The notes under the pieces were generated by a model. It searched no databases. It was not told the DNA's origin and saw nothing but the letters and a program-made list of their open reading frames with translations. A DNA stretch of 64,000 nt from Pocillopora damicornis (taxonomy: Eukaryota). The number at the start of each line of letters is the position of its first letter. The stretch's first letter is position 1. Both the position numbers and the translations under genes were made by a program. Positions 2,951 to 51,261 of the stretch are shown piece after piece. The stretch covers positions 186,001-250,000 of the forward strand of contig NW_020846693.1 of NCBI RefSeq assembly GCF_003704095.1, in the 5' to 3' direction.

Positions 2951-3346
2951 TCGAGAACAAGGATTGTATAACCAAGAGAAACTTACGGTTGTGGCCGAAA
3001 AAAAAACTATAAACTTCTGTCGGCTGACAGTGTAGGTTAGCTAGCTGTAGGAAGCACAGTTGGTAGTTGACTGGCTATATTCCTAAGAAAAACTGCGAAA
3101 ATTTAGCCTTAGATGTTTCGGAGCTATTTTATACTGTCTTGAGTTTTCATTTTCGGCATTTTGATGGTCCTCACAGCGCCTCGATGTCCTAATATTCATG
3201 AAAAGTTCTGTTCTATCTGCCGTCTGTCCTGTCTTCTCACGGCGAAAAATATGGCATCCCGTGACGTCGAGGCCTCGTTTTGAGTTTGCTATTCGACACC
3301 CTTTTTTAAATTTGGCTCCGTCACGCAACATATACAGCCGTTCCTA
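2951..3346. promoter_or_regulatory. Probable bidirectional promoter between C6orf62 and FAXC
   Basis: Divergent start codons at 2950 (-) and 3347 (+), about 400 bp apart, CpG-enriched relative to the flanks. Confidence 0.6.
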
Positions 3347-3950
3347 ATGGCGTTCGAACTTTATAGCGTGATATTTGCTGTTCTTTTCGCCTGTGGTTGT
3401 CTAGTTCTTCTGCTGGTGGTGCAAGCCGTTTTAGTTTCCATGAGACTGAAGCCAAAGAAGAATCAGAGCCCACGGCATGGAAAGGTTGTCCTTCATCAAA
3501 TGCCTCCAAATTCCCGAGTTTTAAATGTTTCTCCATCTTGTCTAAAGCTAGAGACCTATTTACGAATGAACAAAATCCCCTATGAAAGCGACTACAGCTT
3601 TAGAATGTCGAGCAAAGGCAAAGTGCCATGGATTGAATATAATGGAACGTCCGTTGCGGATTCAAACTTTATTGTCCGTTTTCTCAACGAAGAATTTCAA
3701 TTGGACCCCGATGCCCATCTGAGTGTCGAGGAAAAAGCCATCGCGCATACCATGCTCGTAACACTTGAGGAGAATACGTATTGGTACGACCTCTAATAAT
3801 ACATAATACACTTATCTGTTTTNNNNNNNNNNNNNNNNNNNNNNNNNNNNNNNNNNNNNNNNNNNNNNNNNNNNNNNNNNNNNNNNNNNNNNNNNNNNNN
3901 NNNNNNNNNNNNNNNNNNNNNNNNNNNNNNNNNNNNNNNNNNNNNNNNNN

Positions 3951-3984
<34 letters not shown>

Positions 3985-5398
3985 TAGTGATTCCATGTTT
4001 GATTTTCTTTTTAGATACACAGTTGCTTTTCAATAGGGGTGGAGTTTGCACCTTGTCAAAAGCATAATCAAGGTGGGAAGAGGGAATGCATTCCATTATT
4101 TTTCTCAAACAGGAACTTGCACAGAATTAGGCTGTAGAACAGGCCTAATTTTTTTCGGCATTTGTTAGGTGAAGAGAGGCAAGTGCAAAGCACGAGTCAT
4201 GTGCAAGGGTAGGAGAGCAATAAAACTTTTTTAAAAAGAAAATAGGTCATGTATTTCAGGGTTTTTTCCTCTCATACAAGTGTCTCAAAATGTCTTTTTG
4301 CTGCAAATTAGGTGATGTCTACACTTGGGCAGGAGCCCATTATTCGGAACTTCCATCCTTCATACTTACCCTCTGAGTCAACCCTGTCCTGTATCTTTTT
4401 GTTTTTAGAAGCACCTTTGGGGGTGTTTACATAAAAGCCAATCATATGAGAGCTGTGGTCCTCTATTGTTTACGTCACATGCAGGCCACATGTTTTTGTG
4501 GGAAATTATAGAACTCCCCTATATCTCAGTTCTAAAAATAAAAGAATATGGGACAGGGTTGACTTGAGGGTACAATTGGTATGGAGGCTCCGGGTAATGG
4601 GCTCCTGACTCCAGCTGTGTAGACAAGTTACATGGACTGAACAAGATTAATTACATTCACTCCACATGTTTTCCAAGGGTTATGATCAGATCTTTTTCAA
4701 ATTTACAGCACTTGAAATGAACAAAACTTCAGCAAACCATTTGTAAAACTTAAGCAAAATCCAGTTTAAACCTTCCTTTCCTAACAGAATTCCAGTTTGG
4801 CTTCAGCAAGGCTCCCCTCCCTCCTCTTCCTCACTGCCTCCAAGAGCTTGCACAGTTTTCTGTTTGTCAAGGATCTGATCCATACACAAAACCACTTCCC
4901 TACAGCACTGTAATAGTTCTCCTTTGTCTTATGTAATTTTCCATTTAATCTTGTAACAGGACTCTGATATATCATAGCTTTGTGGCTGATCTGGCAGATA
5001 CAAGGTCGATGTCACCTCTATTGGGAGTAACACCAATTCCTCTAAATTATGTTATGTCATGGTTAGCATCTCATTATCTGCGCCAGAACCTCTGGGGTCA
5101 CGGAATTGGGCGGCACTCTAGAGAGGAAATTTACAGCATTGCAGAGAGGGACCTAAGGGCTGTATCACAAGTGCTAGGAACAAAGAGGTTTATCATGGGA
5201 AGCAAGCCATGCCTTTTAGATGCTGCAATATTTGGATTGGTTGCAGTATTCCTTTGGAATGTTCCACACAGCCCACAGGCAAAACTTATCAGGTCACAAT
5301 TGAAGAACTTGGAAGCACATTGTTATACCATCAAGGAGGAGTATTTCCCAGACTGGGATGAATTAATATTGAAAAACACAAATTCTCTTGATTATTAA
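3347..5398 (+). CDS. FAXC: Failed axon connections homolog (FAXC/metaxin-like GST-fold protein), 2 exons
   Basis: Exons 3347-3783 and 4960-5398 join in frame (TG|G). N-terminal hydrophobic segment, SPSCLKLETYLRM..IPYE, SSKGKVPWIEYNG..VADSNFI, GHGIGRHS.EEIY..AERDLRAVS..LG.K.FIMG.KP...DAAIFG motifs. Confidence 0.88.
3951..3980 (+). repeat. (GA)n microsatellite abutting an assembly gap
   Basis: Direct reading. Confidence 0.95.
4317..4624. mobile_element. MITE with ~90-bp imperfect terminal inverted repeats in the FAXC intron
   Basis: gtctacac...caggagcccatta...gagtcaaccctgtcc...tttttagaa at left mirrors ttctaaaaat...ggacagggttgact...taatgggctcctg...gtgtagac at right. Confidence 0.7.
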
Positions 5399-6203: not shown

Positions 6204-7082
6204 CTAAGTTGGTTTAATTGTGTCACAAGGACCTCCACTACAAGGCCAATTTCCGCAATGCCACTGGCCACTTTTATAAACAGGCTTTGGTACTGGTAAA
6301 TCATTTTCTGGGCAATCTGCCAAAGAATTACATTCACTCCAATTACAAGCAACTTTTCGACCTTGATATTCATATTTTGCCTTCAATACCACATAACCAC
6401 GACTCTTTCCAGTAACACTATCCAGTGGTAACATGGACTGGAAGAGCACTTCCATAGGAACCCAATAGGGCGGATATTTGAACCGGGCTGTGTCAAACAT
6501 CAATACAGATTTTGATTCTTTGTCCATTGCAGCAACAGGACTGAAATGACCGTCGCCTGTTTGTCCCAAAGTCTTCCTCGAGTAAGAAATTGCCATGAAC
6601 TCCTCTGGATTTTCCTCATCAAACGTTTCTCCTTTAACCTCCTTGCCACCAGTGCAGACTCGCTCTAGAATCTGAATAAATTTCTTGTATTGTTCGTTCG
6701 AGTCGTTCGGTCGAACAAGGGTGGCTTCTGCTCCATTGCAGTGTGCTAAACAAACAAATTCTTCCAAAGTGATACCCGATACTTTCACGTCTTCTAGCGG
6801 ACGACAACACTCTAAGAGTTCCTCGGTAAACCATCGCCAAATAGTTCTCCAGATACGTTGAGGATCTATTCGCAGGGCATTTAAGATAATCGCTAAAGTA
6901 CTGACCCCGCAATAAGCTGGTTCAGCTTGAGTATTAAAGCACGAAGACAAAGATAGGTAAGGAACAGCATGACCAGTTTGCAGAGCACGGCAGAGGCGAG
7001 TCTTGGACTCCGTAGATCGGTAGTCAACCAGATTTTGAGGGAGAGAACGCCCATAAAATGTTCTAGGAGTGTTAGAAGACAT
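6204..7082 (-). CDS. PCS: Phytochelatin synthase (glutathione gamma-glutamylcysteinyltransferase), intronless CDS
   Basis: FNTQAEPAYCGVSTL (catalytic Cys), WRWFTEELLECC, GITLEEF.CLA.CNG, GQTGDGHFSP (His), FDTARFKYPPYWV (Asp), D..TGKSRG. Start placed at MSSNTPRTFYGR (7082) by comparison with paralog starts; the open frame extends to 7196. Confidence 0.93.
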   Translation of the reverse strand: MSSNTPRTFYGRSLPQNLVDYRSTESKTRLCRALQTGHAVPYLSLSSCFNTQAEPAYCGVSTLAIILNALRIDPQRIWRTIWRWFTEELLECCRPLEDVKVSGITLEEFVCLAHCNGAEATLVRPNDSNEQYKKFIQILERVCTGGKEVKGETFDEENPEEFMAISYSRKTLGQTGDGHFSPVAAMDKESKSVLMFDTARFKYPPYWVPMEVLFQSMLPLDSVTGKSRGYVVLKAKYEYQGRKVACNWSECNSLADCPENDLPVPKPVYKSGQWHCGNWPCSGGPCDTIKPT

Positions 7083-7412
7083 TGCATCCAGTGAATGATC
7101 TCTGTTTCCCCAAATTTTTCTCCTACTCGCTTGGTAAATGTTTGATGACCACCCAGGTGTTTTTCTGAAGCGTAACAAGTACATTCTCAGACACATTCCC
7201 AGTACTTACCGAGTCTTGGCCGGCTCGACTTGAATCCGGTCTTGTGGTATAACAATCATATAGTGTCAGACAAAAAATTTAACTCAGTTGAACCCTAACG
7301 AACATTATAAAATAATTCAAATAGTACGCGCGCTCTGATTGGCCATAAAACCATTTTACATGAGCGTATGTAAACATTGTTTTCGTTCCTCTTTCATTGG
7401 TTTTTTTATAAA

Positions 7413-7598
7413 AGAAATGTGAAATGGTTTCCGTGTTTACATAGCCTGATGTAAACACGCGGGAGGTTGGGAGAAAACTTGAGAAGCTGGAAACCACTCC
7501 GCTTCGCGTCGTGGTTTCCTACGCTTATCTCGTGTTCTCCCAACCTCCCGCATGTTTACATCAGGCTATGTAAACACGGAAACCATTTTACATTTCTT
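7413..7598. repeat. Long hairpin/palindromic non-autonomous element upstream of PCS
   Basis: aaatggtttccgtgtttacatagcctgatgtaaacacgcgggaggttgggagaa is mirrored by ttctcccaacctcccgcatgtttacatcaggctatgtaaacacggaaaccattt around a central gaaaccac...gtggtttc. Confidence 0.8.
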
Positions 7599-7940
7599 AA
7601 ATCAAGAACACACTTACAAAAAATCCAACTCGCCACTAGATAAAGGAATAAATAAACAAACAGAATTAAGTTATTCAAATTCTGTCCTCATTAGGAACCT
7701 GTCATTGAATTATTATAAAGAATATTAATGTTTATTGTTGAGACATAGCGGGATAGATCAGCCGCGTCTCATACTTGCTGGTGGCCAAGATTTTGTATTT
7801 TGGTGTTGAAGATTTTTGCAATTTGACGGCAACAGAAGACCACATTGAGACCATCAAATCAAATGGCAAAGTGGGCTTCATTAAGTTCGAAAGAATCATG
7901 GTTGAAAAAGCTTTCCCGTCATTTTTACAGAAGGCGCTCG

Positions 7941-8076
7941 ATGTCGACTCTTTCATCTAAAACGGTTTACGGATCTCCGTTGTCTCGTTTTCTCGTTGAC
8001 TACCGATCTAAGGAATCCGAAACTCGCCTCTGCCGTGCTCTGCGAACTGGTTATGCTGTTCCTTACCTATCCTTAT
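7941..8076 (+). CDS. Phytochelatin synthase paralog, 5' fragment (cut by gap)
   Basis: MSTLSSKTVYGSPLSRFLVDYRSKESETRLCRALRTGYAVPYLSL aligns to the PCS N-terminus ...LVDYRSTESKTRLCRALQTGHAVPYLSL. Confidence 0.8.
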
Positions 8077-8176
8077 NNNNNNNNNNNNNNNNNNNNNNNN
8101 NNNNNNNNNNNNNNNNNNNNNNNNNNNNNNNNNNNNNNNNNNNNNNNNNNNNNNNNNNNNNNNNNNNNNNNNNNNN

Positions 8177-8243
8177 ATCGATAGTCAACAAGAAAATGAG
8201 GCAACGGAGATCTGTAAACCGTTTTAGATGAAGAAGTCAACAT
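8177..8243 (-). CDS. Second phytochelatin synthase paralog, 5' fragment (cut by gap)
   Basis: MLTSSSKTVYRSPLPHFLVDYR; upstream sequence similar but not identical to that of the 7941 copy. Confidence 0.72.
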
Positions 8244-8529
8244 CGAGCGCCTTCTGTAACAATCACACGAAAGCTTTTTAAACTTTGATTCTTTAGAACT
8301 TAATTTAAGCCCATTGTTTCGACTGATTTGATGATCTCAATGGGGTTTTCCGTCACCTTTCAATTCAAAAGGCCAAACTTATGACCGCAAATTGTGAAAA
8401 ATACAGTACCTTTACTGTTAACCGTCATCAAAGCCAGGCTGTATTAGACGCCTGTTCACGCCACTTAAAGAACGAAATGGAGCGAAGCCCCATAACGAGC
8501 TTTGCCTGCCGAAAAAGTCATGCAAATTA

Positions 8530-8655
8530 GGGTTGGGTGTATAATAGCATGATTTGGTTTTGTCAACCGAGTTGATATGTGATTTGGCCACTGTAAATAA
8601 TCTTAAGCTGATGTTTCTCGCGTTAGCCCTTTGTCACAGAGAGTCCACTCTGACG
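8530..8655 (-). repeat. Degenerate copy of the Penelope-type repeat also seen at 20796-20993
   Basis: Reverse complement reads gtgacaaagggctaacgcgagaaacatcagc...tacagtggccaaat...tcaactcggttgac. Confidence 0.6.
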
Positions 8656-9199
8656 CGTTTCCAGGCGTTCAGTTTATAAAACGGAGGGCAATATGATGCG
8701 ATATTAAACGGTGCGGTGGGCGCAAAGGTGCGAAAACACAAGGGAGGTTTGGGTCGAATCGAGTAATGTTCACTGCACAACACGATCCTAAATTCTTCCG
8801 TTTTTATTTATAATCTTTCCCTATCCAACTGCTGCATGTACGGGCGAAGATAACAGTAATGATGTTTTTATTTCCAGCAAAAAATCTCATGTCGTTTAAA
8901 GTACTATTATTAAAAGTGCCGTTTTATTGTCACCTTCAGACATAAAACCGGACGAAAAAACAATTGAGTAACTTCGTGAATAGAAGAGAGCGTCAACAAC
9001 AAAAGTTCGTCGTTAATGAGGTCTCTACTGAGTCGGATGGAAAATGGTCTCCTTGCCATTCTTAAATTGCTTTTTGGCAGCTTCTACAGAGAAGAATATT
9101 TCTAACAAACACTGAGACATTTCTACAATATGATTCATATTGCTTAATAAACAGGTTGTAAAAGAAAGGGAATTAAAATTTAAAGAAGACGAATTTGCA

Positions 9200-9362
9200 T
9201 TAGCTGCAGACTTTGTTAATACTCATGCTCACGACTGTGTTTTTTATTTCAAAAAACTGAATTCGTCTTTTGCCATGATTTACGAAGTCACTTTCATAAT
9301 TCCATTCTTGTTTTGCCTTCAATACCACATAACCTCGACTTTTTCCAGTGACACTATCCAAT
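9200..9362 (-). CDS. Phytochelatin synthase paralog, 3' fragment
   Basis: LDSVTGKSRGYVVLKAKQEWNYESDFVNHGKRRIQFFEIKNTVVSMSINKVCS*; first 17 aa identical to the intact PCS. Confidence 0.75.
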
Positions 9363-9462
9363 NNNNNNNNNNNNNNNNNNNNNNNNNNNNNNNNNNNNNN
9401 NNNNNNNNNNNNNNNNNNNNNNNNNNNNNNNNNNNNNNNNNNNNNNNNNNNNNNNNNNNNNN

Positions 9463-9544
9463 ATTGGATAGTGTCACTGGAAAAAGTCGAGGTTATGTGG
9501 TATTGAAGGCAAAACATGAATGGAAATTAAAAGGCCCTGCGTAA
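9463..9544 (+). CDS. Phytochelatin synthase paralog, 3' fragment
   Basis: LDSVTGKSRGYVVLKAKHEWKLKGPA*. Confidence 0.75.
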
Positions 9545-10522
9545 ATCATGCGAAAAACGGATGCGAGTAATATGAAACACCGGCAGCCCAGGCTCCAGCT
9601 GTCAGATGATCATTTTGCAAACTAAGAGTCATGGTGAAAATTTAAGAGTTTGTAAGGGAATACTTACGACCGCTTCCAGGAAGTAAAAAATACAGTCAAA
9701 TTCTCAATACAAATACCTCGCCTTACTTTCATAGTGTATTACCTGTTTGTGACCGCTTACTATATTGTAACGAGGCATTTTAGCGAGATATACACCTCTA
9801 GGTTTAGTACTCCTTCTCCTCGCAGTACATCATCCTTAAAGAATTTCAGTTCATTTTGAGTGAAAAAGTTCGTTCATTTTTAATATCTTTACATAAAAAA
9901 TGTCATCTCTTTTATCAAGGGGTTACTCATCATACCAATTTTCCCCATTTGATTCACATGGTATTTTTTTGTACTTCGAATGCGAATACAGCAAGTAAGT
10001 TCTCCATCCCGCATTTTAGGTCTGGTGAGACTATATTATAGCCAGGTTCAAAGCAGGAGAAAACTCCGTAAATATTCCCAAGAATGTTTTAATCCCGATA
10101 ATTAATCATTTATGTTTTTTTCTTGAAGGGAGTCATTGACAATTATTGATATCCCTGCTTTTTTTTCGATTTAAAAATATTCGTTTGGAAGGATTCGCGC
10201 GCGCTATTCGAACTTGTGCGCGAGGGGAGCGCGGGCTCATACTTTGCAGACCTCTCGTATCGCGCTCCAACTGAAAACTCGCGCGCTTCATCGCTCGCGA
10301 CGCGCAACGCCAATGAGAAACTGCTCGCAAACCATCCCTGGACGCTCAACAATTCAAAACTAAAACTTTGCTTCTGATAGATGCCAAACTTCTTAATCGT
10401 GAAAAAACGTAATATGAGAACATCACAAATTTTTTGTGCAAGACATCCTAAATCATTCTATGTTTCATGGAATAAAGTTTTAATGTTCAACTTTAAACAA
10501 ACGGTATATGTGACATTTCTTT

Positions 10523-14464
<3,942 letters not shown>

Positions 14465-15704
14465 TTCGGACGGTATAGAATTTAATGGCAGAGAAGAAAG
14501 AAAAACGGAAGCTGGAAATAAATGATCCCTCCTTCGACAAGTAACCGACGAACAGAGATGACTCCAAATCAAAAACTGAACTGATCATGTACCAGCTCTC
14601 TATTATATATGGTGACAATGACGTCAACGTCACCTGGAATAATAATATAAACTCAGGTATATTACAAACCTGTCTTATAAGGGGTGTCCCCTTGGGAGTT
14701 CTCTGCAGGCCAGAATTTTTAGTTGACCCTTTAACCCTAAGGAGGGGCTGGCTTCTAATTTCTCCTCGCATTATCGCCCCCAAAATGGCTAGAGGTCATG
14801 ATTGTCAAGCAAATTCTCCTTGTCAGTATTACAGGAAATGTAACGAGAATAGAGTATAGGAGAATATAAATATTAGAATCAGTCGATGTCTCATAGTGGT
14901 CTCTCAGAACGGCAGGTCGTAGCTTCTTGGAACAAATAATTTTATCGCAGCACCAGCGGGGGAGGGGACAAAGTTTTTACTTTTTTTATATTGGAACCAC
15001 AAACCGGTTGAAATTATGCGTTTACCTAGATATTTTTTTTATGGATTTCTGGAAAGGTTGTTTTTTCCACAAGACTGTCCAAGCTTCGTACATGGAGGGC
15101 ACTCCTTCAGCTAAAAATGGTACAATCTGTAAACCGGAATCGCCAGACCTCTAATACGGTGTTGCGGCTCTTTGAAAGGTAATATTCATTACCGATTTTT
15201 GTCTAGAAGGATAGCGGCCTAAATCAGGATCACTTCTTAGGGTCGTAATAGGGCCTGCTCAATAACTAGGTAACTCATTCCCAAACCTAAAATTTAATAA
15301 AACATCCTATTCCACCGAGGAACTTAACTGGTATTTCATGGGGAAATCTAGGAAATAGGGTGGGGGAAGTCATTATGGTCAAAGTTTAGAAAGTAAGGTT
15401 GTTCATAGTTCCCACTGGCACAGGGTTTAATTCATCTCTAGAAAAACAAATTGTATTATCATTTCCTTTTGTCATATTTAGTAAGTGAGAATTCTCGGCC
15501 AAAACTGTTATTAGGGCCCTACAAATGTTGTTGTTCCAAGGAAATTTCATGATAAGCTGTCACAAGCAACACAAATTCATAAAAACCACACTTCACTAGT
15601 CATGAAACAAACATTTATTCCTCAATCTTACAACACAATATCACAGAACTCAATCTCAAAACACAAAAGCATTAATTTTTTCTTCCAGGGTGGTCTTGTT
15701 TTGT

Positions 15705-18173
<2,469 letters not shown>

Positions 18174-20077
18174 GTTGATGCAGAATTATAGCAAAATGAA
18201 CTGTAGAAAAATTTCTCTGTTCAATATATCGGGCGAAAGAGTCTTATATCGAAATGCGACGGCTTCGACGAAAGACAGTGCGACCGTTGAAATTAATGCA
18301 ACCTCAAGTTTAGGCGCGTTTATAAGGGCGCTCTTCGTAGCAACCACGTGTTGTGGGTTAGTGACACAATGAATAATGCATAAATTTGCTTAATGCACTT
18401 TCGGATTTGATTGTCACTAGTAACGGGAGGGCTTAAGGCAAGTCTACGAAACTCCTCAAAAATTCTGAATCAAAGAGGCTTGAATGTCAAATAAATCAGT
18501 TTATGAGCGAATTGAAATAATGATCCAACGTTAAGTAGAGTACCGATGCGTTGAAGAGAAACGTTTGATCGAGATTGCTTCTTACCTATACCCTCCCCTG
18601 CTAGAACACGCAGTTTGTCTTCAAGAGATATTGTTTATCGTGGTTTGGGGTGTGTTTGGTCAGTGCATAAATTATGTTCATTTAGTAAAACCACACCCGC
18701 TTGTTGCTTGGAAACAGGTTAACCACTTGACATGTGAAAAGCATCCAGGGAGGTGACGTAAAGTTTTTTTACAACCTTCTCCCTCCAAGGGAGAGTAGTT
18801 TGCCCTCTGTTCAGAATATATCAAAGATGGTGACTCGGTCATACGGGACGACGAGACTTTATGCACAAGAAAGCAGAGATATTTTCTCTTTGGTCTCTAG
18901 CCGATACCATAATTTATTTCACTGGATACAGGAGAAAGAGCTGGTTAGCGGAAATAAGCTGGAATGAGCGAAGAGACAGCTATATTCGCTCTCTCTCTCT
19001 CTTAGCAGTCTTCCATCGTTTTTTCCTTTCGCTCCCTTTGTTCTTTCGCTTGTTTTCCTCATCGATTGCCTGAAGCAAACTTGGTTTTCTCTCCTTTGCA
19101 ATTTTCTTTTTACATCAAGTATTTGAGTAGCGTTTCAGTGTAATATTCACAAGCAACAGACATTGTAGTCATCGTTATGTAAATTTTACTTTTGTACTCG
19201 TGAGGGAGTACAAAAGGCTGTGCCTAGTCTAGTACCCAGATCCTCTCGGGGAATTATAACTGCTTACAACTGCTTAGCCGTGAAAGCTCTAGGCATACTT
19301 GATTATGCTTATCGTCTCGTTCGAGAGGGGTTTATTTTAAAATCTTCCGAGATTGAAAGAAAGAGAAAAAGAAAAACGATTTTAATTCGACAACAGTTTT
19401 GATGGCAACTCAGGCTCTTGAAGAGCCTGGCAAAAGTTCCCACGGATAGAGGCTTGCGCGCGGATAGCAAAGGCCCCAGTTCCCCTAATTCTTTTTCTCG
19501 CTCTCCCTGCTTCAGCTCTCGCCTCAACAGTAAAGACTATCGGGATGAGAATACTTTTTCATGACAAACCCTGCCAATTTCATTTGCCGCATAATTTTGA
19601 TAAATCGCGTTACTTTTTATCTAGGCATTTTACAGGTTGTGGTTTGTTTTTCTCTCATTTGGTGTAATGGTACATGTTATCACGACTTTTATGATTATAG
19701 CATATAAACCATTTTTTTTTAAGGCGAGCCCTCGTCTTGAACGCTTCTGGTTGGTCTCCCAAATGTTGCTCTATGTTTAGTGAAAGGCGTCGCCTCATCT
19801 TGGTAACGAGACTTGTTTTTGCTCAAAGCAGTGAGTTGTAGTAAGGTGAACCAAAACTTGAACCTGCCGGGGTTTACATTTCGCGGAGCACCGCACCAGC
19901 ATTAACCTGTAGTTTCCCGCAGTTTTTAAGGAAAATAAGATTCACTGAAACTGGCAAAACACTACTACTGTGAACCTTGTTCGAGAAGCACCGTTACTAC
20001 TTTTCGATAGGGATATAAGTCAAAATTTTTTATTTGAGACACACTATTTTCATCCAAACAACTTTTTTCAACTGGAA

Positions 20078-22274
<2,197 letters not shown>

Positions 22275-24212
22275 AAATCTTCATCTGCTGGCTTGGGTGT
22301 GTGTGGGGGAGGGGAGGAGCAGGGGAAGTGTTGTCGAAGCAAAGTAACCTTGATTGGCATCTTGTTGCCAAACGAGACTCACGGTTTTGAACGAAATCTA
22401 CCCCAATCCTAAGAGCTTCGTTCCAAATAGGTACCAAGATATTTAATTCCATTTGATGAAAGATTGTATTTATTCTAGAAAGTTCGTTTATTTTACCAAC
22501 TTGTTATATTCCTTAAGAAGGTGCGATTTTGAAATGAGTATGACAGTCATCGGGGCGATCCTAGGAAAGTCCTGAAGTTTGAGAAGTATATACATATGTT
22601 GTTAGCAAAGGTGTGATATCATAATAAATTACCACCTTTTGCGATAATGTATTAAACGCTACGCCTCTTCATTTGAGTCCAAGATTAGAATGCGAGCGGC
22701 TGGCAGTTGTATTGATCCCTGACTTACTAACCCTGACCATCTCCCACTCACTGCCATAGGAAGCTTAGTTGCAAAATACTAAAGTTTAACCAACTTGCAA
22801 TGTGGCATACAGATTAAAAATGTGATAAAAGAGCGTAAGACTGCAATCCTTGTTCGTTTGTTAACACTGATCAAAAGAGACACGGAGGGGGAAAAAAATC
22901 CTTCAGACGTCATTTGCCATCAAAGCAAATGTAATATGTGCTTTCGTTAAAAATAAAAAAAAAACGGGTGAATTATTTAAAAATACCTTGAGCTGGTCTA
23001 CACGAAAGTAAGTCAATGCACTTACAATTGGCGCGTGTTGTTTGGTTTTGTTATCGGCAGCGTATCCCGAAACTAAGACGAACAGAAAAATTTTATTAAA
23101 AAAAACGCACTAATTGTTCATTGTTTCGCAAAACATTGATATTTTTCTCGAAGGAAACTTAGTTTCGAGTTAAAAACAAGAAAAGTGAAAAGGGCCCCGT
23201 TCCCCTTCATTCGTCCACCCTCAGCCCCGCCCCCTTGACTCCTCCAAGCTTAGCCCCGCCCTTGGTAATAATTTGTAACATGCATCACCTTTGCGACAAT
23301 TATTACGCAAAAAGGACAGTAAATCTGTTAAATACATATTTCAGCATGATACACTTACCAACAAGGGTGTACAAAAATCTATTCACGTTTAAAATGTGAA
23401 ACTGCATTCCTAGTATTTACTTATCTATTCTGGTTTTAGGCACTATTTGGGTAACATTGTAATTTAATCAGAGAAACAGCATTTGAGTTCATATTTGTAG
23501 TGAAAATGGTAGCCTGTGTTCAACTTAGATCCAACCACGACAAATTACTATACCGCAAAAAACGTTCTCAATTTTATGCCGGAACTCCCAAACAATGGCA
23601 GATGGAGGTCTAGTTACATTCATTATAATTCATTAAAAAAATTTGCATATATGCAGGCAGATAGTTTTCATATGCTGAGCACAAATTGACAGATGTCTTG
23701 AGAGAATTTTTTTCTGGCTTTATGCAAGAGCAATCCATATTCTTTTCTCCCTCGAAGGTTTCAATCTGAAAATGCCCAGAGCATTTGCTTTTAGGTTGCT
23801 AAAACAAAACCGGCGCTAAATGAAATTTTCATGAATGGAAAATCACATTGTTACTTAATAGAAACAGCATCACACGGCGGCTTACTTTGGGGACCACAAT
23901 TAATATGAAATTTTTCACCCTAAGCCAATCAGATAACGTAAATAAAATATTATTTGTGCCGACATAAGTCTCCAGCTGATTTATCTTTTCAATCTTTTTG
24001 ATTTTATGTTAATTTTCGTCACCATATAAACTAAAACCACTTAGTTTCCCCGTCACCTGCCATGCAAAGGAATACAATAGCCTTGCTTCATTGATTATGT
24101 TCAAACCACTCCCGTTTTCGAAAGACGTTGCTGCTATTTCGGAGCTCGGAAACTCACCAAAGTTTTCCCTCGCTAATTTTTGGACAAGATCCCCAAATAA
24201 CGTTATTTTAAA

Positions 24213-26712
<2,500 letters not shown>

Positions 26713-27784: not shown

Positions 27785-30700
27785 ATGGAAGAGACACATC
27801 AAAGTTCTACTGATCATCGAGGGTAAGTATATCTCTCGAAAGGTCGTAGAGAATTTCGTCTGTTTTTTATTTAATCCTCGCGTATTTTACCACTTACATT
27901 AAGTCTGCATGTGTGAAGTTGAGCAATACTGTATAATTTTTGTGTACAAGAATAATTACAAAGTATTTATAAACCTTAGTTTGTATAAGTGTTACTCAGA
28001 AATTTGTTTCAAATCCGCCAGCTCGTAGTAAATAGTAGATAACGTCTTTGAAAATGGACGAGTTAACCCTCTGACAAGACAGTCAGCTGTATTATACCTG
28101 TAAGACGTTCTTCACGTGATGTTTAATGTCATTAGTCCTATTTCATTCCGTTATTTAAGACAGATTTGGCTGATTTCAGGAATTATGCAGAATTGTTAAA
28201 AACGAGAGCTGCCCTTTTCAAATATGCGATGGCATTTTTTTTTCTTTTATCAAATCTTGAAATTATACATAAAGAACCTCAAAGCAATCTTTAAAAAAAT
28301 TGCTAGATTTAAACCCCTGATTTTGCTTTCTGGCCTCTTTAAATTTTTACAGTGGCTAATAGAAATTATCACAACATTCCATCTTACTATCATTTTCATA
28401 AAAGGTTTTGTTTTAAGGCAACTGTTTATTTGATGGCGGAAAAGAATATTGAACAGTTGCAGTTGTGTTCAGAAGACTCCTCTCTAATAAAAGAGCCTGT
28501 TCTTAGGGTTCAGAGAGTGAAGGGAGATCAATAATATGCCTTATTTTGGTGTGTCAGTATGTTCATTCAACAGAGGTGTCTGGGGTATACAGGTTCACTT
28601 ATAGTAGATATTGGAAGAAAACTTTGGCACTGTGCAATGTGTACACTCGATACACATGATTCAAAGACATCCATCCATGAATTGTAAAACCAAACTTGCT
28701 CATGGTAAGTGAGAAAACAAAACCTGAAAATGAGGGTTTTCTACAATTTTTTACCAAGAATTAATAATTATCTTTTGGTTTTATTTCCAGGCTTAAACTT
28801 CAAAATATTATTCAGAAATTGTCTGAACACTGTGATATAAAAAACCCACAAGAATTGGTGAGTGTATCTGTAAGTACAAATACAAAAGTATTGAAGTATC
28901 TACTGAATGTCTTTCATTTTGTTTCTCCTCAAATATGCAATGAATGAATTACTATTTGTTGGAGGAGTTCACTCAAGGACAAGTATACATTGTGCACAAG
29001 TTCTCTATGAAAATTCTATGCCCTTGAGTGTCAATTTGTATGCATGTTTTTCAAATCTCTTCTTTTTTGTGAGCAGTTTGTTATAAATGGCTGCAAACTT
29101 TATTTTCTTGAATGCAAAATCCTTTGAGAAATTTACACTGAAGTTAATTGAATGCCTCTGTGATGGTCTTGTAGGATGTTGAAGACTCTGATCTTAAAAC
29201 CAAGAGGTGAGCTTTTTCACTAGATTGTGGAGATGTTCATTCACATGTCTTTGTTTTTGCTAACAGCTCCATTCTTTGATAAGTCCTTGCTAGCTCAGTG
29301 CTACCCTTTGGTAGTTCTATAGGGAAGGAAGCCGCAGTCACTGAATAAAGTGTTAGGAGTCTCAATTCTTTCCTTTGTGGCTGTATTAAACAATCTTGAG
29401 GGTTATTCATCAATCATATGGCTGTATTTCAACATTGTATTTGGGGCAGAGGGAGGGCCTTGTGACTAGTAGAAGTTGAGTTCATTGTTTTAATACTGAA
29501 GAAAATGTACATGGATGTAGACACTGCATTGAAAAAAAACATTCTAAAAAATGTTTTGTCCCACAGAAGAAAGCAAGAAAGCATCATAACTACTTCGAAT
29601 GGAACTGGCAATTATACATTAGAAAAGGACATGGACAGACAAAGCAGTGACTCTAAGGCAAAAAGTAATATTTCAGAATCGGTGCAGCATGAGGTGAACA
29701 GTGTTAAGAGTTCTACACCACCACGTGAGAGAATCAGTGCACGCATAAGAAGTTTAAAATCTAAGAAGGTGGCTTATGAAGAAGAGTGGGTTGACCCTGA
29801 TCATATCAGACTATCAGGGCAAAAGATACCTGTGCAGTCAAATAAAAATTCAGCTCATGAAGAAGTCATCAAGACTGTTACAAGAAAGAGAAAACGGAAA
29901 GGAGCAAAAAACTTTCAAAGTATGGAGGATTACGTGAATGAATCACCATTGATTCAAGTTGGTAATCTAGTTGGACTGCGTCAGTGTCGTTTGTGTGCAG
30001 TGATGTTTGTGGAAAAAGATCAGCTGATCAATCATATGAAGGCTGTACATCATTTAGGTGAGTGAGAGTAGTTTTTATCAGTCATGTTATCTTTGGACTT
30101 ATTAACATAGGCCTGACTTACATCAGTGAAATAACATTCATAATCAAGCTTGAAAGGCAGGGTTACAAATTTTGGACAGTCACAATTATTTTCATACTCA
30201 TTGAGGCTCTGGTGAGTGGCAAAACATTGTAGTTCTGATGAGTGGCAAAAACATGTTCAAGGTCATCTTGGAGCCAGTAAACCAAGTGGTGTCTTGTGGT
30301 CTCCTCACCATATAAAAATGATGCTGTAAATTTATCTTGTGTTAAAAAAGGCAAATAACTGGTGATGATGATGAAGTTTATGGAAGGGTATACAGGGAAA
30401 TTATATCCATCCTTATTATTGCATATATGTGTTCAAATTGTACATGCCCCCTCAGAGGTAGAGGTCAAGAATGATATGACCTTTAAAAATGAGACGTTTT
30501 TGACAAAGCTTGTGATTCTCTCTCACAGCCCTGCTACTTAGTTTTTAAAATCACGAATACCAGGTTACTGGTTATAAAACGCTAGCCTTACTATATGTAA
30601 ATATCTTTCATATATGCTTTAGTCTAAGTTTGTTAGTGTATTTGTAGGTTGTACACCACAATGCTTTATGCTGTGGTGACTACTAACCTCAACAACAGTC

Positions 30701-33154
30701 AAGTTCACCTTGCTTTCAAATTACTGATTTTCCTCATCTTGTTTATGTTTTTGAAATTGATCTGGTTTGTAGATGACAAAATAAACATCTCTAAAGAAGG
30801 TACCGCAGATGTTTCACAAAGTGACAACAAAGCAAATGGTAAGATGTGGGTAATCCCATCTGCTAGTTCTTCAGATTGACTTCTGATGCACAGTTTCTTA
30901 GTTACTTTTAACACTGACTCCAAACAACATTTATAAGTGACAGTGAACATTTAAACAAATTGCTGCCCTAATACTTTCCAACAAACTCCCTTGTGTAGCA
31001 GCCCTCTTCACACAAATTGTTTTTACTCATGCTATAGCTTGGACCACCAGCTTGTTTTTCTGTGACTTGTTGCAGGGACAATTCTGAGGCAAGAAGCAAT
31101 AATTTCACACTGTGTTTTTGTCTCACATTGCAAATATTCCCTGAAATATGTTGCTGTGGCATGTGACAAAGCCTGGTAGATTATTGAGCTGTGATAGTAT
31201 ATTCTAACATCAGCAAACATGTAATTTTTTTTAGCTGTCTGTTATAGAACTCTGTGACATCAACATCTTTAAGCATTTACTCACACATGTTTTGTTAGTC
31301 CCACAAGATAATAATTTGTAGCAACAGCTGTGCACAATTTTGAGAATATTCTTGTCTTGTAAAATTTCAGATGAGAAACCTTTCAAATGCTCTCAGTGTG
31401 AATCGTCATTTAGAAAAAGTAGTGGCCTAAAGCAACATGTAACAAGGCAACATTCCTTGAGTACACCACAGAAGTTACCTCCAGCTCCATCTAACCAGGT
31501 GTCCACAAAGAAGGGTTGCCCTACAAGTGACAGGCCTTATGCATGTCAGGTAACACACGTCTTCTTTGTGAAAAGGATTATGGTGCAATCTTAAATTAGT
31601 TTCATTACTGGGTAAACCAATGTGCTCTCCAATACTCTCATTGATCTTAGAAATGAGATCTAAATAGTTCAAAACTGATGTTAAACCATGAGGCACAACC
31701 AAGTGGTTTCACTGCTAAGTTTTTCGACTGGGGTGCACCTTAGACTTTCTGCAGTCTAAAGTAATACAGACTTCGTGAGTGTCTCTATCCTAATCTATCC
31801 CTATTATTACTTTTTATTGATGGTGTTATCACGTGACAGATCAGAACACTGTTCATTGGTAACGTTCATAGTGCCACCGTGGGATGAGGAAAAGGTTGCA
31901 GGTTGTAAAACCTATCAATCACTTTGAGAAGATTGCAAACCAAACAGAGTTGTTTGGGCAGCTTCTCACCAGCCAGCCATATCTGAAAGTCGCGAAACTT
32001 CAGATAAAAAACGACACCTGAGCTCTCTCAAAATCAACTACTGATAGTTTATTTATTTCTCAAGATTTATTTCTTAATCATCCGTTACTATTCTGACTCG
32101 AATAGCAAAACTGTATCATTACCCTGATCTCTGAACACTAGCAACCCAAACTACGAAGACCGAAAACTCGAAAGTCAGCTTTCAGAATTCGCGACGTCCG
32201 CGATCGTTCTATGTTTATCCATGTTAGTTATAAGCAACTGGTGTCTCAAATGCCCGTCGATAAAGCATGACAGGTTTTTTCTATAAGTTAAACACTTTGC
32301 CCATTTGGTTTTTACTCCGAAGCGACCTGATAATGATTTGTCAGTCCATGATTGATCTACGTTTATCCATTTAAGTTGTATCGTGAATGCCTGTAGAATA
32401 AGCATAACGGTTTTCTTTTCTATAAGTTAAACACTTTGCCCTCATGGTTTTTACTCCGAAGCGACTTGATGATTATTTGTCAATCCTAAGGAATTTTACT
32501 GTAATCGTTGTAACGATAACAAATGGAGGAAATCGTTTGTTTTAGGTATGCGGTAAAGCATTCAAACGGAAGCACCATTTACAAGAGCACAGCTATATTC
32601 ACTCCGACGCAAAACCTTACAAATGTGACACTTGCAGCAAAACATTTAACCAGAGAATTTGCCTGACCAAACATCTTCCATGCAGAGAACTCGAAAAACA
32701 ACAAAAGAAACCAAGCTGCAGTAAAACTGGAGACGGCAACACAGCAAATTTGTTAACACAACATCAACCTAACGACAGAGAAACAGAATTATCTTCAAAA
32801 GGAGTTGCCAAAAGTGCAAGCAAACTCACTAGTGATTCTGTTTTACTGTCAAGCAACAATACACACGTCGAGTCTGCAGAAGAGTCACATCGTGTAAATG
32901 ACAAAGAGCATGAAAATGGCACACTCTCGGTTCATATAAGTGGTGGACCCTTGCGTGACAATCCAGTGTCACAAGACACTGCGAGACTTTTGATTGGTCA
33001 CGCTAATAACGGTGTACATTCTCAAGAGATTGTGAAAGATGAAAAAAAAGTCATTGGCTTATCTCCAAGCACGGCTGCTAAAAGTGCAGTAGCAGCAAAC
33101 GATCGTACTTGCTCAGTCAAGGAGCCGACGCAGTTGCCACAGGAAGCAACTTAA
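27785..33154 (+). CDS. C2H2 zinc-finger protein (about 4 fingers), ~7 exons
   Basis: Exons 27785-27822, 28791-~28857, 29175-29206, ~29567-30057, ~30773-30838, 31371-31549, ~32546-33154; fingers [98 protein letters not shown]. The 5' exons are less certain. Confidence 0.75.
32263..32487 (+). repeat. Local ~80-bp direct duplication in the last ZNF intron
   Basis: ttttctataagttaaacactttgccc...tggtttttactccgaagcgac...atttgtca occurs at ~32275 and ~32415. Confidence 0.8.
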
Positions 33155-35697: not shown

Positions 35698-38600
35698 TCA
35701 CTGATATGGATCTGTCTTGAGGTCTACAGTTCTCCGCTTTCGCCAGCAACGAAGACACATAATCACAATCAGATCAACGAATTCACACAAAGTCAGCAGA
35801 CTACAGCCGAGAAATAATCCCATGTTACCTCCTACGTCCGCTAGAGAGGAAAACAGACAACAAAAATTATTCATATAATATTTATATATTGTAATGGAGC
35901 TCCTCCATCGCTGCGGAGGCCCATGTCCACGAAAATATGCCAACTTGTGAACCCAACCCTTAGATTTGGCTGTTACGTGATGTTTGTACGTTTTGTATTC
36001 GTATGCGCGACAGTGATACAGATATCATTCTCCGGCAACTCATGGCGCCAGTCTGCGCCTCAATGAATGTGCGCTTGCTGCAAGTTCTGTAAGGAAGACA
36101 CCGTCAGCCAATGTATTCCTTTACCAAGATATGTTTGAGTTCAGAACGTAACTAGAAACATTACTCACATCCAAAATCATTAAAATCATACGCGGGTTTC
36201 TCCCTCGTGACTTCAGTGTCCAGACTTTCGTAGTAAATGTTTACTTGAGCCATTCTTTGCCTACGGATGTAACGATACAAAAACATCTGGAGGTTTGGTC
36301 AAATAAGTACGTCGCATAGTACTTAAGCTTAATTGAAAACTTTTCATAAGAACTCCGTACAGCGTTCAGTACGAGACTTCTGTATCGTGCGACTATCAAA
36401 CTTTACCATCTTATTCTAATGATAACATTTTTATTTGTATGAAGTTTTAATGAAGTCCTTGAAAACATCTCTTCAGTGATAAAGATCGAACTATGCCCCA
36501 AACGCTTTGAAGTAAGTCTGGACTGACACTCACACAAAAAACCTTCACCGACGGGCAGGTCTGGTTGGAGTACAAGTATCCAATTATGTTTTGTGGTATT
36601 CAAGATTCTTGATTTTAGGACTCCCGGAAGTAAGAATGTAATGTCGCGTTTGTTACCTGATGTAGTTCTGGAACTCGACAACTTTCTCTGTGTTATTAGT
36701 TGACATGTTGTACATTGGGAATATTGTCTCCCATAAGTGATTTGACGGAGCGTACGCCATGGAGGCCTGGACTTGATAGCGTATCTCCGTACATGGCACA
36801 GGGCAGGCACAACTATTTGGATTAAATTTACCTAAACAGAGAGGTAAGAGAGATTAAAGCATTCGTATACATTCCGTTGGGATAACCATATCGGAAGTTC
36901 TTATTCACCTGGGTGCATTTGAAATATGTTTTTTTGAACTGTGACACTACTTTGGGGAGTGTGGCGATAACGCTCTTCGGGAGCTAGTGATGTTTTGTAA
37001 AGATGTTTATTGTTTACCTCTGAGTTAGTGAAAGAGTGAGTGAGATGCGCGTTTCCTGATGTGTCAAAAGCTTTCACCTACCATATTTTGGGAAGACGCA
37101 GGTAAAGATTTCCTTTGCAGAGCAATATCTCGTTTTGTTCTCACCTGTTGGAATATTAAAATTTTTAACTTGAACATAAGTTTAACTCCTTATTTGATTG
37201 ATTACTTGATCTGTATCTCTCGGGGATTAGCATCATCTTAAACAGCATATTGCTTACCAAATGAAGGCATAGATAGCAGTCGACAACCGCACTCTTCATA
37301 GGTTATGTTGGTGTAACATTCCAATAGACATGCGTACTGTGAGTACATTTTGAAAGCTGCCAAGTTCTTGTCGCTGCAGGCGGATTTAAATGGCGCGGGA
37401 AGACTCACCATCTTAAATGACAATTAAAACTTGATCAGTGACATAATTATACATTGTAGTACATTGCGTAATTTGGGCATTGCTGATCGTAGCGATCTGT
37501 AGGACACAGGACATGGGTAACACATTGCTTAGCTCAGTGAGATGTCTGGAAGGTAAAGAAGGCTTAGTCCTCTATACAGGAAACTTGGTTGTACCAACCT
37601 TGCTTCTGCGCACGCGTATGTTTGTGGTAAACCCTGGAGTAATATCCAAAGCGAGGTCTTCAATGTTTGGATACAAGTCCTTCTGATCATGAATCAGAAT
37701 CTTAAAACCTGTTGCGTCGTAGCTGTATGGCCCGTAATACTCTTCGGGTTGTGCATCCAAGTAAAGTGACAAGGCTTGCACTTTTCCTGATGTTGTCACA
37801 TAAAGCTTTTGGTGACCCCGCTGATCAGAATTAAACGTATAGCACACCCCCCGCTGTAAGCAGAAAAATCGTGTTATTTACATAGTGAAATAGTCTAGAT
37901 CATTTTCTCCTCTTTCCCTCTCTTCCTCAAAAATGCACTCAATGGTTCTCTTATAGCAACAAAAGCAAACGATTTCACCCAGTTGTAGGTAGAAAATCCT
38001 TTTATTTTCTCAGTCTTAGGAAAAACTGACTGACGTAGAATAGTTCTTTTTGTATCTGTAAAAGCTTTTTTTTTACCCTGTAAATCCTTTGTTGTTTTGC
38101 GGAATAAAAAACAGAGAACAAATGTTAACACACGAGATCATAGACAAGAATGAGCTTCAATTAAAAAAATTTATTACCCTTTAAAATACTAATGCGGAAT
38201 GCTAGTGACACTTCGTCAACTGGAGAGAAACCACTCTGTTGGAAGGAATTCATAAACCAATAAGCTAATCACAAAATTTATAAACCTCACCATGAAAGAA
38301 ATAAAAGAGGAGAAGTTAGCAGAAGTGCATGGTTGATTTTTCCACTCGCAGTCTTTCATCATCTCAGATAGGTTGTGACCGTGCTTCATCACACTCTCCC
38401 CAGGATCAAAGTCAGGGCTCGTCTTTTCTTCCAAGAGTTTATTCCCCAAGATATGCAACTTTACATGATCTTGTTGGTCTAGAAATGTTTGCGCGTCTGT
38501 TCCCAAAATTTTACTTTTTCGCATCATATTCTGGTTGCAAATAGTAATTGCAGGGTACAAAAGCTTCTCAGCATGTTCAATATCTTTGCCAATGACGCTT

Positions 38601-38863
38601 TCGTAACTTCGTAATTTGCGCCAGTTGTCTCGAAACTGGAAGAACAGAGCACATATACCCAGGGAAATCAATGTGATCCAAATAATCCTTCGTATCCGGG
38701 AGGCAGAGTCCAGGACAAAATGAAAACCGTGCAGGGTGGTATAGCCGCTGAAGTCTTTGATAACACGCGTAGCTTCATCTGTTTCTGATTTCCATACTTC
38801 CTTTACTTCTTTCACGCAGTTATCTCTTTTCTGTTGTACTGCTTTTAATTCTTCCATTTCCAT
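35698..38863 (-). CDS. DEG/ENaC (acid-sensing ion channel-like) subunit, 7 exons
   Basis: Exons 38291-38863, 37599-37853, 37258-37411, ~37082-37144, ~36657-36831, ~36169-36260, 35698-~35841; TTLHG gating motif, TM1, YPAITICNQN, G.CYTFN, G.KILIH.Q, Cys-rich thumb (C.CPVPC), TM2 FGSDVGGNMGLFLGCSLLTLCEF. Confidence 0.92.
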
Positions 38864-50400: not shown

Positions 50401-51261
50401 GTATCCCTGGGTAATTTTAGCATCTCATTGCACATGTGTTCATTAAAACCAGAATTCTTAATTAATTGCACACTTTGTCCATGTTGAAGTTGTAATGTAA
50501 TACAGGTGCATGCTCAATTTGGGGTTTATCTTATGCTGGTTTAACTTTTTGTATCCACTTACAGGCATGACATGGAGAGAACTATCAGCTCAGCATCATC
50601 TTCAGTTCCATTCTGTTTGTTTAGAAATGGTGACTGTGTTAATGTCATGGAACCGCTGTCAGCTGAACAACTTACCCTCAAAGTTATTCATGACAAGTTT
50701 GAACCAGTTAGTAGCTCGGTGGCAGAGTCCTTAGTACAGTGGGCCAGTGGTGACAAGACCAAAGGCTTCCAGACAATTGAACAGATGTTACCAGTTGGTA
50801 CAACTCTCACTGGAATTGGAGAAATCACACTTACTGATGATGGCATCAAGATAGGACCCCCAAAATCTGGTCTGACTTATTATCTATCTCAATTCACATT
50901 AGATGCTATTGTGAGACAGCTGCAGTCAGGAAAGAAGGTTTGGAAAATCTTGAGTGCCATCTTTGCCTTTGGAAGTGGCATATTGTTCTTGGTGTCCCTG
51001 TTTCTTTATTTCAAGAGACGGCGTGACAGGGAAGTGGAACTGGACTTGATGCGGAGAATGCGAGAGGAGGTGAATGTTTTGGGTGAGGGTGAAGTATTAG
51101 ATCAGCAAGAAGCCTGTGTTATTTGCATGGACAGACAGCGCAATGTTGTTATTTTAGACTGTGGCCATATTTGTTGCTGTATAGACTGTGCTCAACGGGT
51201 CAACAACTGCCCTGTGTGTCGCCGTGTTATTGCAAGGTTGATTCCCACATTCAATAGTTGA
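47465..51261 (+). CDS. MUL1: Mitochondrial ubiquitin ligase activator of NF-kB 1 (MUL1/GIDE), 3 exons
   Basis: Exons 47465-47569, ~48659-48873, ~50564-51261; N-terminal TM, PYGVIRG, SVPF.L, GFQTIEQML.VGT.LTGIGEI, YYLS, second TM, C-terminal RING CVIC..R.RNVVILDCGHICCC..CA.....CPVCR. Confidence 0.9.
49091..49600 (+). repeat. Three degenerate tandem copies of a 150-230-bp unit in MUL1 intron 2
   Basis: ggttaca...gtccatgt...aagagaactt.tagtcag...gacagaatc recurs at ~49110, ~49345, ~49453. Confidence 0.7.
50070..50283 (-). pseudogene. Frameshifted Tudor/MBT-like domain fragment antisense in MUL1 intron 2
   Basis: MMALPQTVGFKAEAVDEGGVWCAWAVEEVDND[frameshift]ILSFDSWNAEWNGRICDPQEIRDQTLLDRKRKRRNLSLQ*. 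Confidence 0.4.

What the first reader, a model, noticed from the sequence alone, without database searches (positions are those of the whole stretch)
6204..9544. Hidden three-copy phytochelatin synthase cluster; contig 8177-9362 is probably mis-oriented
Seen: besides the intact PCS there are two distinct 5' fragments (7941 +, 8243 -) and two distinct 3' fragments (9200-9362 -, 9463-9544 +), each cut at a 100-N gap. Flipping 8177-9362 gives start-gap-end-spacer-start-gap-end, i.e. two tandem + strand PCS genes whose near-identical cores collapsed, divergent from the intact copy. Established: PCS makes metal-chelating (gamma-Glu-Cys)n-Gly from glutathione and is patchily distributed in animals. 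Inference: a local PCS expansion that automated annotation would miss.
Basis: partly seen in the sequence, partly recalled or inferred. Interest (0 to 1): 0.7.

Follow-up and report, generated by a model that had tools for sequence, protein, structure and literature searches.

The report
Coral metal-detox gene trio, two degraded
This coral carries one normal phytochelatin synthase gene (a metal-detoxifying enzyme family) plus two shortened tandem copies hidden by a backwards-placed piece of the assembly; in related corals one copy is transcribed but has an altered catalytic residue and the other is likely a dying pseudogene, so the extra copies likely add little metal-binding capacity.

Summary
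Observation confirmed, interpretation only partly. The window (a Pocillopora-type coral) has an intact single-exon phytochelatin synthase (PCS; 6204-7082, minus) and four fragments cut at two 100-N gaps. The 8177-9362 contig is backwards: one RNA contig joins 8076 to 9362 on opposite strands across 526 letters, exactly completing a 274-codon gene A. Full proteins A-start/C-end and B-start/D-end exist in relatives. The copies are old paralogs, not alleles: Stylophora has both. Only their 3' halves are near-identical (115/116 aa; gene conversion), and the cores are absent from this assembly. The expansion is functionally weaker than proposed. Both copies lack the Cys-rich tail. Copy A has Glu for the triad Asp in 17 of 18 listed proteins. 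Copy B has Ser for the catalytic Cys in 17 of 17 and is truncated in 15 of 17. These states come from relatives; the window's own cores lie in the gaps. Copy A is already annotated in P. verrucosa. Side result: tail-less PCS paralogs of other stony corals also lost the catalytic Cys separately, some keeping open frames.

The parts
6204..7082 (-). Intact single-exon phytochelatin synthase, 292 aa: Cys-His-Asp triad, CC and CxxxC motifs, 58-residue tail with 6 Cys
   Evidence: same 90% cluster as named Pocillopora and Stylophora proteins
7083..7196 (-). In-frame N-terminal extension of the intact gene (ATGs at 7184 and 7196); Arg/Lys-rich, possible mitochondrial presequence (inferred)
   Evidence: 7 K/R, 2 D/E in 34 aa; similar extension in Stylophora
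7303..7602 (.). High-copy palindromic repeat between the head-to-head intact gene and copy A; not part of the genes
   Evidence: Summed contig depth about 1,000-2,500 times the flanks in 4 of 4 DNA runs; 86-nt inverted arms at 7402-7487 and 7523-7608
7941..8076 (+). 5' end of copy A (codons 1-45); optional upstream in-frame ATG at 7863
   Evidence: Identical to residues 1-45 of P0185; RNA contigs cover it in 3 of 3 RNA runs laid
8077..8176 (.). 100-N gap; after flipping it stands for 526 bp of copy A's catalytic core
   Evidence: RNA contig X19 record 14 has 526 letters between 8076 and 9362; 136+526+163 = 825 = 274 codons plus stop
8177..9362 (-). Mis-oriented 1,186-bp contig: end of A, 956-bp spacer and start of B, correctly read on the minus strand
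   Evidence: single-copy contig depth (77.6 against flanks of 66-93 in run X1)
8177..8243 (-). 5' end of copy B (codons 1-22)
   Evidence: Identical to the start of P0191 and of the frameshifted form P0299
8791..9199 (-). Likely 3' UTR of copy A, with a minus-strand AATAAA at 8803-8808
9200..9362 (-). 3' end of copy A (last 53 codons and stop)
   Evidence: Identical to the last 53 aa of P0185; joined to 8076 in an RNA contig
9363..9462 (.). 100-N gap; stands for 598 bp of copy B if its frame is open, less if it carries a common deletion; state unknown in this individual
   Evidence: Arithmetic; alleles
9463..9544 (+). 3' end of copy B (last 26 codons); stops about 10 codons earlier than the Stylophora orthologue

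Best explanation
This is a three-gene phytochelatin synthase cluster whose middle contig is placed backwards: one canonical gene that likely makes phytochelatins, plus two tail-less tandem duplicates of which, judged from relatives, copy A is transcribed but likely a weakened or retuned glutathione-processing enzyme and copy B is likely a dying pseudogene. Steps. (1) Shown: true order is intact gene (minus), 858 bp head-to-head, A (plus), 956-bp spacer, B (plus). (2) Shown by orthology: A and B predate the Pocillopora-Stylophora split, where both keep Cys-His-Asp. (3) Inferred: gene conversion in Pocillopora made the 3' halves nearly identical and spread the Asp-to-Glu change to both. (4) Inferred: these near-identical stretches broke a short-read assembly, the cores were dropped, and the 1.2-kb unique spacer was scaffolded in the wrong orientation. 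(5) Inferred from plant mutants: B, with Ser for the nucleophile, cannot form the acyl-enzyme and is decaying. A keeps Cys and His and the second-site residues but lacks the Cys109-type cysteine and the tail, so it would at best act as a slower, probably metal-independent transpeptidase or glycine-removing peptidase of glutathione conjugates.
For: Orientation: joint 8076-9362 'opposite strands' with 526 letters between in 1 of 3 RNA runs; 15 listed proteins (165 contigs) start with A and end with C, including P. verrucosa XP_058963872 on a 20-Mb contig; P0191 and P0195 start with B and end with D; fused gene models in P. meandrina (CAH3111239) and Stylophora (PFX20387) run A then B on one strand. 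Paralogy: 5' half B-StylophoraB 80% against A-B 68%; tails match the Stylophora copies. Conversion: 3' half A-B 115/116 in Pocillopora against 92/116 in Stylophora. Decay of B: Ser in 17 of 17 listed B-type proteins, 15 of 17 truncated at 89-100 aa, by at least two kinds of lesion. A: full-length in 16 of 18 listed, Glu in 17 of 18. AtPCS1 C56S makes no phytochelatin and does not cleave a glutathione conjugate (10.1101/568113, passages). E52A and Y55A have very low activity (PMC3855540, passages); B has Val/Ile and His there.
Against: The window's own A and B cores are in the N gaps, so triad states and B's frameshift are taken from other individuals and species. No single contig joining B-start to D-end was seen in the runs laid; that join rests on predicted proteins from short-read assemblies, which can be chimeric (P0209 is B-start, A-core, D-end). 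The B counts are biased: truncated forms were searched for on purpose and only 15 members per cluster are listed. B is open in 2 listed proteins (6 contigs) and in the P. meandrina model, and 1 of 3 RNA runs has a contig over B's start. I found no test of an Asp-to-Glu PCS; a fungal-relative PCS (Rozella, P0089) also has Glu, so A may be fully active. P. meandrina has a third short copy with Asp (P0196).
Confidence: 0.8

Rival explanations
1. All three genes are working phytochelatin synthases, a dosage expansion for metal tolerance.
For: True for the ancestral state: both Stylophora copies keep Cys-His-Asp. The catalytic domain alone makes phytochelatins in Schistosoma PCS (PMC3561135, passages). 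Phytochelatin-domain proteins were reported enriched in robust corals (PMC11639872, passage). Copy A has RNA contigs in 3 of 3 runs.
Against: Copy B has Ser for Cys in 17 of 17 and is truncated in 15 of 17 listed proteins; A has Glu for Asp in 17 of 18. Both evolve much faster than the intact gene (77-82% to Stylophora orthologues against 94-97%).
Confidence: 0.07
2. The Ser-bearing short copies are kept pseudoenzymes with a non-catalytic job (binding glutathione or its metal complexes, or a defence role like that of catalytically dead Arabidopsis PCS1).
For: Nucleophile loss occurs in at least three places on the tree; one clade for all 9 such rows is rejected (p-AU 1e-41), minimum 5 changes. 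In other corals frames stay open: 12 of 13 members of the P0054 cluster are 237 aa with Ser (1 is partial), 6 of 6 in the P0042 cluster carry Ser, and Orbicella faveolata XP_020625648 is full-length with Ser. AtPCS1 C56S still restores fungal resistance.
Against: In Pocillopora the Ser copy is mostly truncated. Tail-less paralogs with Cys also show split or truncated members (P0053 cluster), as expected of birth-and-death decay. Cys-to-Ser needs a single base change. No dN/dS could be computed. The plant paper suggests the moonlighting role may use the C-terminal part, which these copies lack.
Confidence: 0.1
3. The assembled orientation is real in this individual (an inversion allele), or the fragments are allelic haplotigs or ends of four separate genes.
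For: No read or contig of this very individual was seen bridging a gap; the bridging RNA contig has 2 differences from the window over 184 letters.
Against: Both contig ends fall at the edges of sequence shared by A and B, next to 100-N gaps. A and B are direct repeats in relatives, which do not produce inversions by recombination (established). Spacer depth is single-copy. A and B each have a Stylophora orthologue.
Confidence: 0.03

Closest known systems
Phytochelatin synthase family, Pfam PF05023, EC 2.3.2.15 (AtPCS1 type)
   Same: The intact gene has the whole domain, the Cys-His-Asp triad, second-site residues and a Cys-containing tail.
   Different: Its tail is short (58 aa against 140-260 in most fungal and bivalve hits). 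Copies A and B have no Cys-rich tail and altered triads.
Stylophora pistillata PCS-like XP_022798881 and XP_022798882
   Same: Orthologues of A and B, same order and strand, on the same 376-kb scaffold as the intact-type gene.
   Different: They keep Cys-His-Asp and are not homogenised in the 3' half (79% identical to each other).
Nostoc NsPCS (Alr0975; PDB 2btw, 2bu3, 6tho, 6th5, 6tjl)
   Same: Catalytic-domain-only protein; the best PDB match to copy B, 6tjl, also has Ser at the nucleophile (that 6tjl is an engineered mutant is recalled).
   Different: Distant (E 1e-16); the coral short copies arose from the coral gene by duplication, not from bacteria.
Recently duplicated PCS genes of Arundo donax (PMC6793451)
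   Same: PCS duplicates that diverge fast after duplication (outline and highlight only).
   Different: By its section headings all three plant copies make phytochelatins; here one copy is predicted dead.
Catalytically dead AtPCS1 C56S (10.1101/568113)
   Same: Same Cys-to-Ser change as copy B.
   Different: Engineered, full-length with its C-terminal domain, and shown to keep a defence function; nothing of the kind is shown for corals.

Membership tests
PCS PF05023 - intact copy | Domain score above Pfam's curated cut-off | tested here: met
   259.4 bits against 24.9, profile 1-210 of 210
PCS PF05023 - intact copy | Cys-His-Asp catalytic triad | tested here: met
   Aligned to NsPCS and across homologues; AtPCS1 numbering taken from papers by motif spacing
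PCS PF05023 - intact copy | CC and CxxxC motifs and a Cys-containing C-terminal region | tested here: met
   motifs as described in PMC11314372
PCS PF05023 - intact copy | Makes (gamma-Glu-Cys)n-Gly from glutathione | not testable with these tools
   Needs an assay
Active PCS - copy A | Catalytic Cys and His | tested here: met
   In full-length relatives whose ends are identical to the window's fragments; the window's own core is in the gap
Active PCS - copy A | Catalytic Asp | tested here: not met
   Glu in 17 of 18 listed A-type proteins; effect of Glu untested
Active PCS - copy A | CxxxC motif and Cys-rich tail (metal-activated type) | tested here: not met
   First Cys of CxxxC is Tyr; 38-residue tail with 1 Cys
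Active PCS - copy B | Catalytic Cys | tested here: not met
   Ser in 17 of 17 listed B-type proteins and in the P. meandrina model
Active PCS - copy B | Catalytic Asp and second-site Glu52/Tyr55 equivalents | tested here: not met
   Glu; Val or Ile; His
Active PCS - copy B | Open reading frame over the domain | tested here: inconclusive
   Open in 2 of 17 listed proteins, truncated in 15; biased sample; unknown in this individual

The most novel reading that the evidence does not exclude
Stony corals have repeatedly turned tail-less PCS duplicates into natural Cys-to-Ser pseudoenzymes, and some of these (the Orbicella-type clade, open alleles of Pocillopora copy B) are kept for a non-catalytic role such as binding glutathione-metal complexes or defence, a natural counterpart of the unexplained moonlighting of catalytically dead plant PCS1.
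Probability: 0.12. Interest if true: 0.65.

Novelty: new variant of a known kind. Interest (0 to 1): 0.33.

Why it matters
Practical: it fixes a scaffolding error and shows that PCS copy counts in corals mislead in both directions, since this assembly hides two copies while domain counts would score dead or altered copies as detox genes. Biological: phytochelatin function in animals is little tested, and pocilloporid corals offer a natural series from one locus (canonical; tail-less with intact triad in Stylophora; Asp-to-Glu; Cys-to-Ser) that can be assayed side by side. If Ser copies in other corals prove to be under selection, they would give a handle on non-catalytic PCS function. As it stands the case looks like ordinary duplication, gene conversion and decay.

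Tried and rejected
Allelic haplotigs: rejected by Stylophora orthologues and single-copy depth. Cores lying elsewhere in the assembly: not found. More than one spacer in this individual: contig depth of the spacer equals that of the flanks in 4 of 4 DNA runs, though depth is only a rough guide. A DNA contig bridging either gap: none listed in the 4 DNA runs laid; contigs break in the shared stretches, so this is no evidence either way. The joint 8071-9465 in run X17 is the intact gene's contig matching the fragments at about 92%, not a A-D join. Pocillopora DNA for the cores: the metagenome scan gave 7 loci, all intact-type genes of other corals at 76-81% identity, so no dN/dS was possible. 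Independent origin of the pocilloporid short copies and the other corals' short clade: not resolved (p-AU 0.278). The 82-row careful tree did not finish; the quick tree was used, then a careful 49-row tree with partial and redundant rows and non-cnidarian rows left out. Reading this individual's B allele from where contigs end: inconclusive. Structure and complex prediction not run: they would not tell Asp from Glu activity. Romanyuk et al. 2006 is not held and is cited only through other papers.

Full report
Setting. The window is G000:C3328:186001-250000 of a 234-Mb assembly in 4,393 contigs. The intact gene falls in a 90% cluster with named Pocillopora verrucosa, P. meandrina and Stylophora pistillata proteins, and the short copies cluster with Pocillopora proteins, so the animal is a Pocillopora-type stony coral (inferred).

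Observation. The two 5' fragments are homologous to each other with about 130 bp of flank (82% over 195 bp), and the two 3' fragments share 54 identical bases next to the gap. A search of the whole assembly with a full-length short copy finds only these pieces, so about 1.1 kb of coding DNA is missing.

Orientation. RNA contig 14 of run X19 lies on 7853-8076 and on 9179-9362 on opposite strands with 526 letters between. 136 + 526 + 163 = 825 bases, the length of the 274-aa protein P0185, whose first 45 and last 53 residues are identical to the window's fragments. This joint was seen in 1 of 3 RNA runs; in the other two the contigs break inside the core. Fifteen listed proteins (165 contigs) have the A start and C end. 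Two listed proteins (6 contigs) have the B start and D end. Fused gene models from P. meandrina and Stylophora run A then B on one strand. RNA contigs of three studies extend from A's stop on the minus strand to 8791-8819, near a minus-strand AATAAA at 8803-8808, which fits a 3' UTR of A lying backwards in the assembly (weak hint). The spacer has single-copy depth. I put mis-orientation at about 0.95. No contig of this individual bridging a gap was seen.

History. In the 5' half, Pocillopora B is closer to Stylophora's second copy (53/66) than to Pocillopora A (44/65), and the tails pair the same way, so A and B are older than the split of the two genera. In the 3' half Pocillopora A and B share 115/116 residues while the Stylophora pair share 92/116. 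That pattern points to gene conversion in Pocillopora (inferred) and explains why short reads could not assemble the cores. The short copies diverge faster than the intact gene (77-82% to Stylophora against 94-97%). In two metagenome loci of another coral the intact-type gene lies convergent with the same GST-like neighbour, and one also has tubulin upstream with no second PCS in 11 kb, so the A-B pair is an addition to an older locus. P. meandrina has at least three short copies (two in CAH3111239, one in CAH3111236), so copy number varies.

Function. The triad Cys56-His162-Asp180 defines active PCS, and C56S removes both phytochelatin synthesis and conjugate cleavage (10.1101/568113, passages; PMC11314372, passages). 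The intact gene has the triad, the second-site residues described in PMC3855540 (passages), CC and CxxxC, and a 58-residue tail with 6 Cys; it likely works as a canonical PCS. Copy A keeps Cys, His, Gln, Glu, Tyr and Lys but has Glu for Asp in 17 of 18 listed proteins, Tyr for the first Cys of CxxxC, and a tail with 1 Cys; it is full-length in 16 of 18. Absence of that Cys goes with metal-independent activity in Schistosoma and Nostoc enzymes, and a tail-less Schistosoma enzyme stays active (PMC3561135, passages). I therefore expect A to be a slower, probably metal-independent glutathione transpeptidase or peptidase (inferred; no Asp-to-Glu test was found). Copy B has Ser for Cys in 17 of 17 listed proteins and is truncated in 15 of 17 (139 of 145 contigs), mostly by a frameshift after residue 81 that reads as a deletion of about 29 bases, in others by a larger deletion; hybrid A/B copies show a further frameshift. 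These counts are not allele frequencies: I searched for short forms on purpose, 15 of 23 and 15 of 87-90 members were listed, and many contigs may come from few campaigns. One of 3 RNA runs has a contig over B's start, with intergenic cover nearby that may be DNA. All core states come from relatives, because the window's own cores are in the gaps.

Wider pattern. Among 127 cluster representatives, a motif scan called the nucleophile Cys in 112, Ser in 6, Asp in 1 and could not; all 7 non-Cys ones fall among short-tailed rows inside the stony-coral part of the tree. With Pocillopora B, loss needs at least 5 changes on the tree, and a single clade is rejected, although that test is easy to fail because Cys-bearing sisters are interleaved. 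Some Ser clusters keep open frames, including Orbicella faveolata XP_020625648. Others, with or without Cys, show truncated members. Whether all short copies share one origin is unresolved (p-AU 0.278).

Literature. Searches for phytochelatin with coral, sea anemone, Pocillopora, Nematostella/metazoa, the EC name, and pseudoenzyme/pseudogene with coral genera listed no paper on coral PCS paralogs or their catalytic residues; only the top listings were seen and most subscription papers are not held. PMC11639872 notes that phytochelatin-domain proteins are enriched in robust corals, especially merulinids (passage); its supplementary tables S13-S15 were not read and may list copy numbers. PMC6025448 mentions a zoantharian PCS transcript (passages). 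PMC6793451 was seen as outline only. The scan's own index returned two notes on other organisms, neither bearing on this locus.

Verdict. The assembly diagnosis is right and now has direct support. The biology is duplication, gene conversion and decay within a known family, with one canonical gene, one altered expressed copy and one probable pseudogene. The repeated Cys-to-Ser loss in coral short copies is the only part that could be more than ordinary. Interest 0.33.

Noticed in passing
window 7083-7196 (-) and 7863-7940 (+): Both the intact gene and copy A have in-frame, Arg/Lys-rich, acid-poor N-terminal extensions, also seen in Stylophora and Nematostella models; possible optional mitochondrial targeting, as described for Schistosoma PCS. 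Not tested with a predictor.
   Followed up: partly
window 10583-26709: Four near-identical tubulin genes, two on each strand (alpha type recalled from the sequence). The third (about 20364-22214) has a 100-N gap at 21327-21426 and lacks one exon match, probably the same kind of repeat collapse.
   Followed up: partly
window 3284-5395 (+): Two-exon-or-more GST-like gene (GST_N_4 and GST_C_6) convergent with the intact PCS; the same arrangement is in loci L008 and L009 of another coral. Two glutathione-related genes side by side, link untested.
   Followed up: partly
window 7303-7602, 8577-8640, about 9644-9790: High-copy non-coding repeats; the first is a roughly 300-bp palindromic element that may be a miniature transposon.
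   Followed up: no
proteins P0011, P0073, P0319, P0320 (Desmophyllum pertusum): Two adjacent PCS pairs in a deep-sea coral by locus tag; P0011 is a mis-joined model ending in a tubulin exon, suggesting PCS-tubulin linkage there too.
   Followed up: no
proteins P0032, P0063, P0066; P0057, P0070: Sea anemones also have several PCS paralogs, including short-tailed ones with changes at the Glu52 position.
   Followed up: partly
window 29466-33151, 35701-38878, 50545-51258, 58292-58822: Other genes: C2H2 zinc-finger protein, amiloride-sensitive sodium channel family, GIDE/RING E3 ligase, ERM-like helical protein.
   Followed up: no
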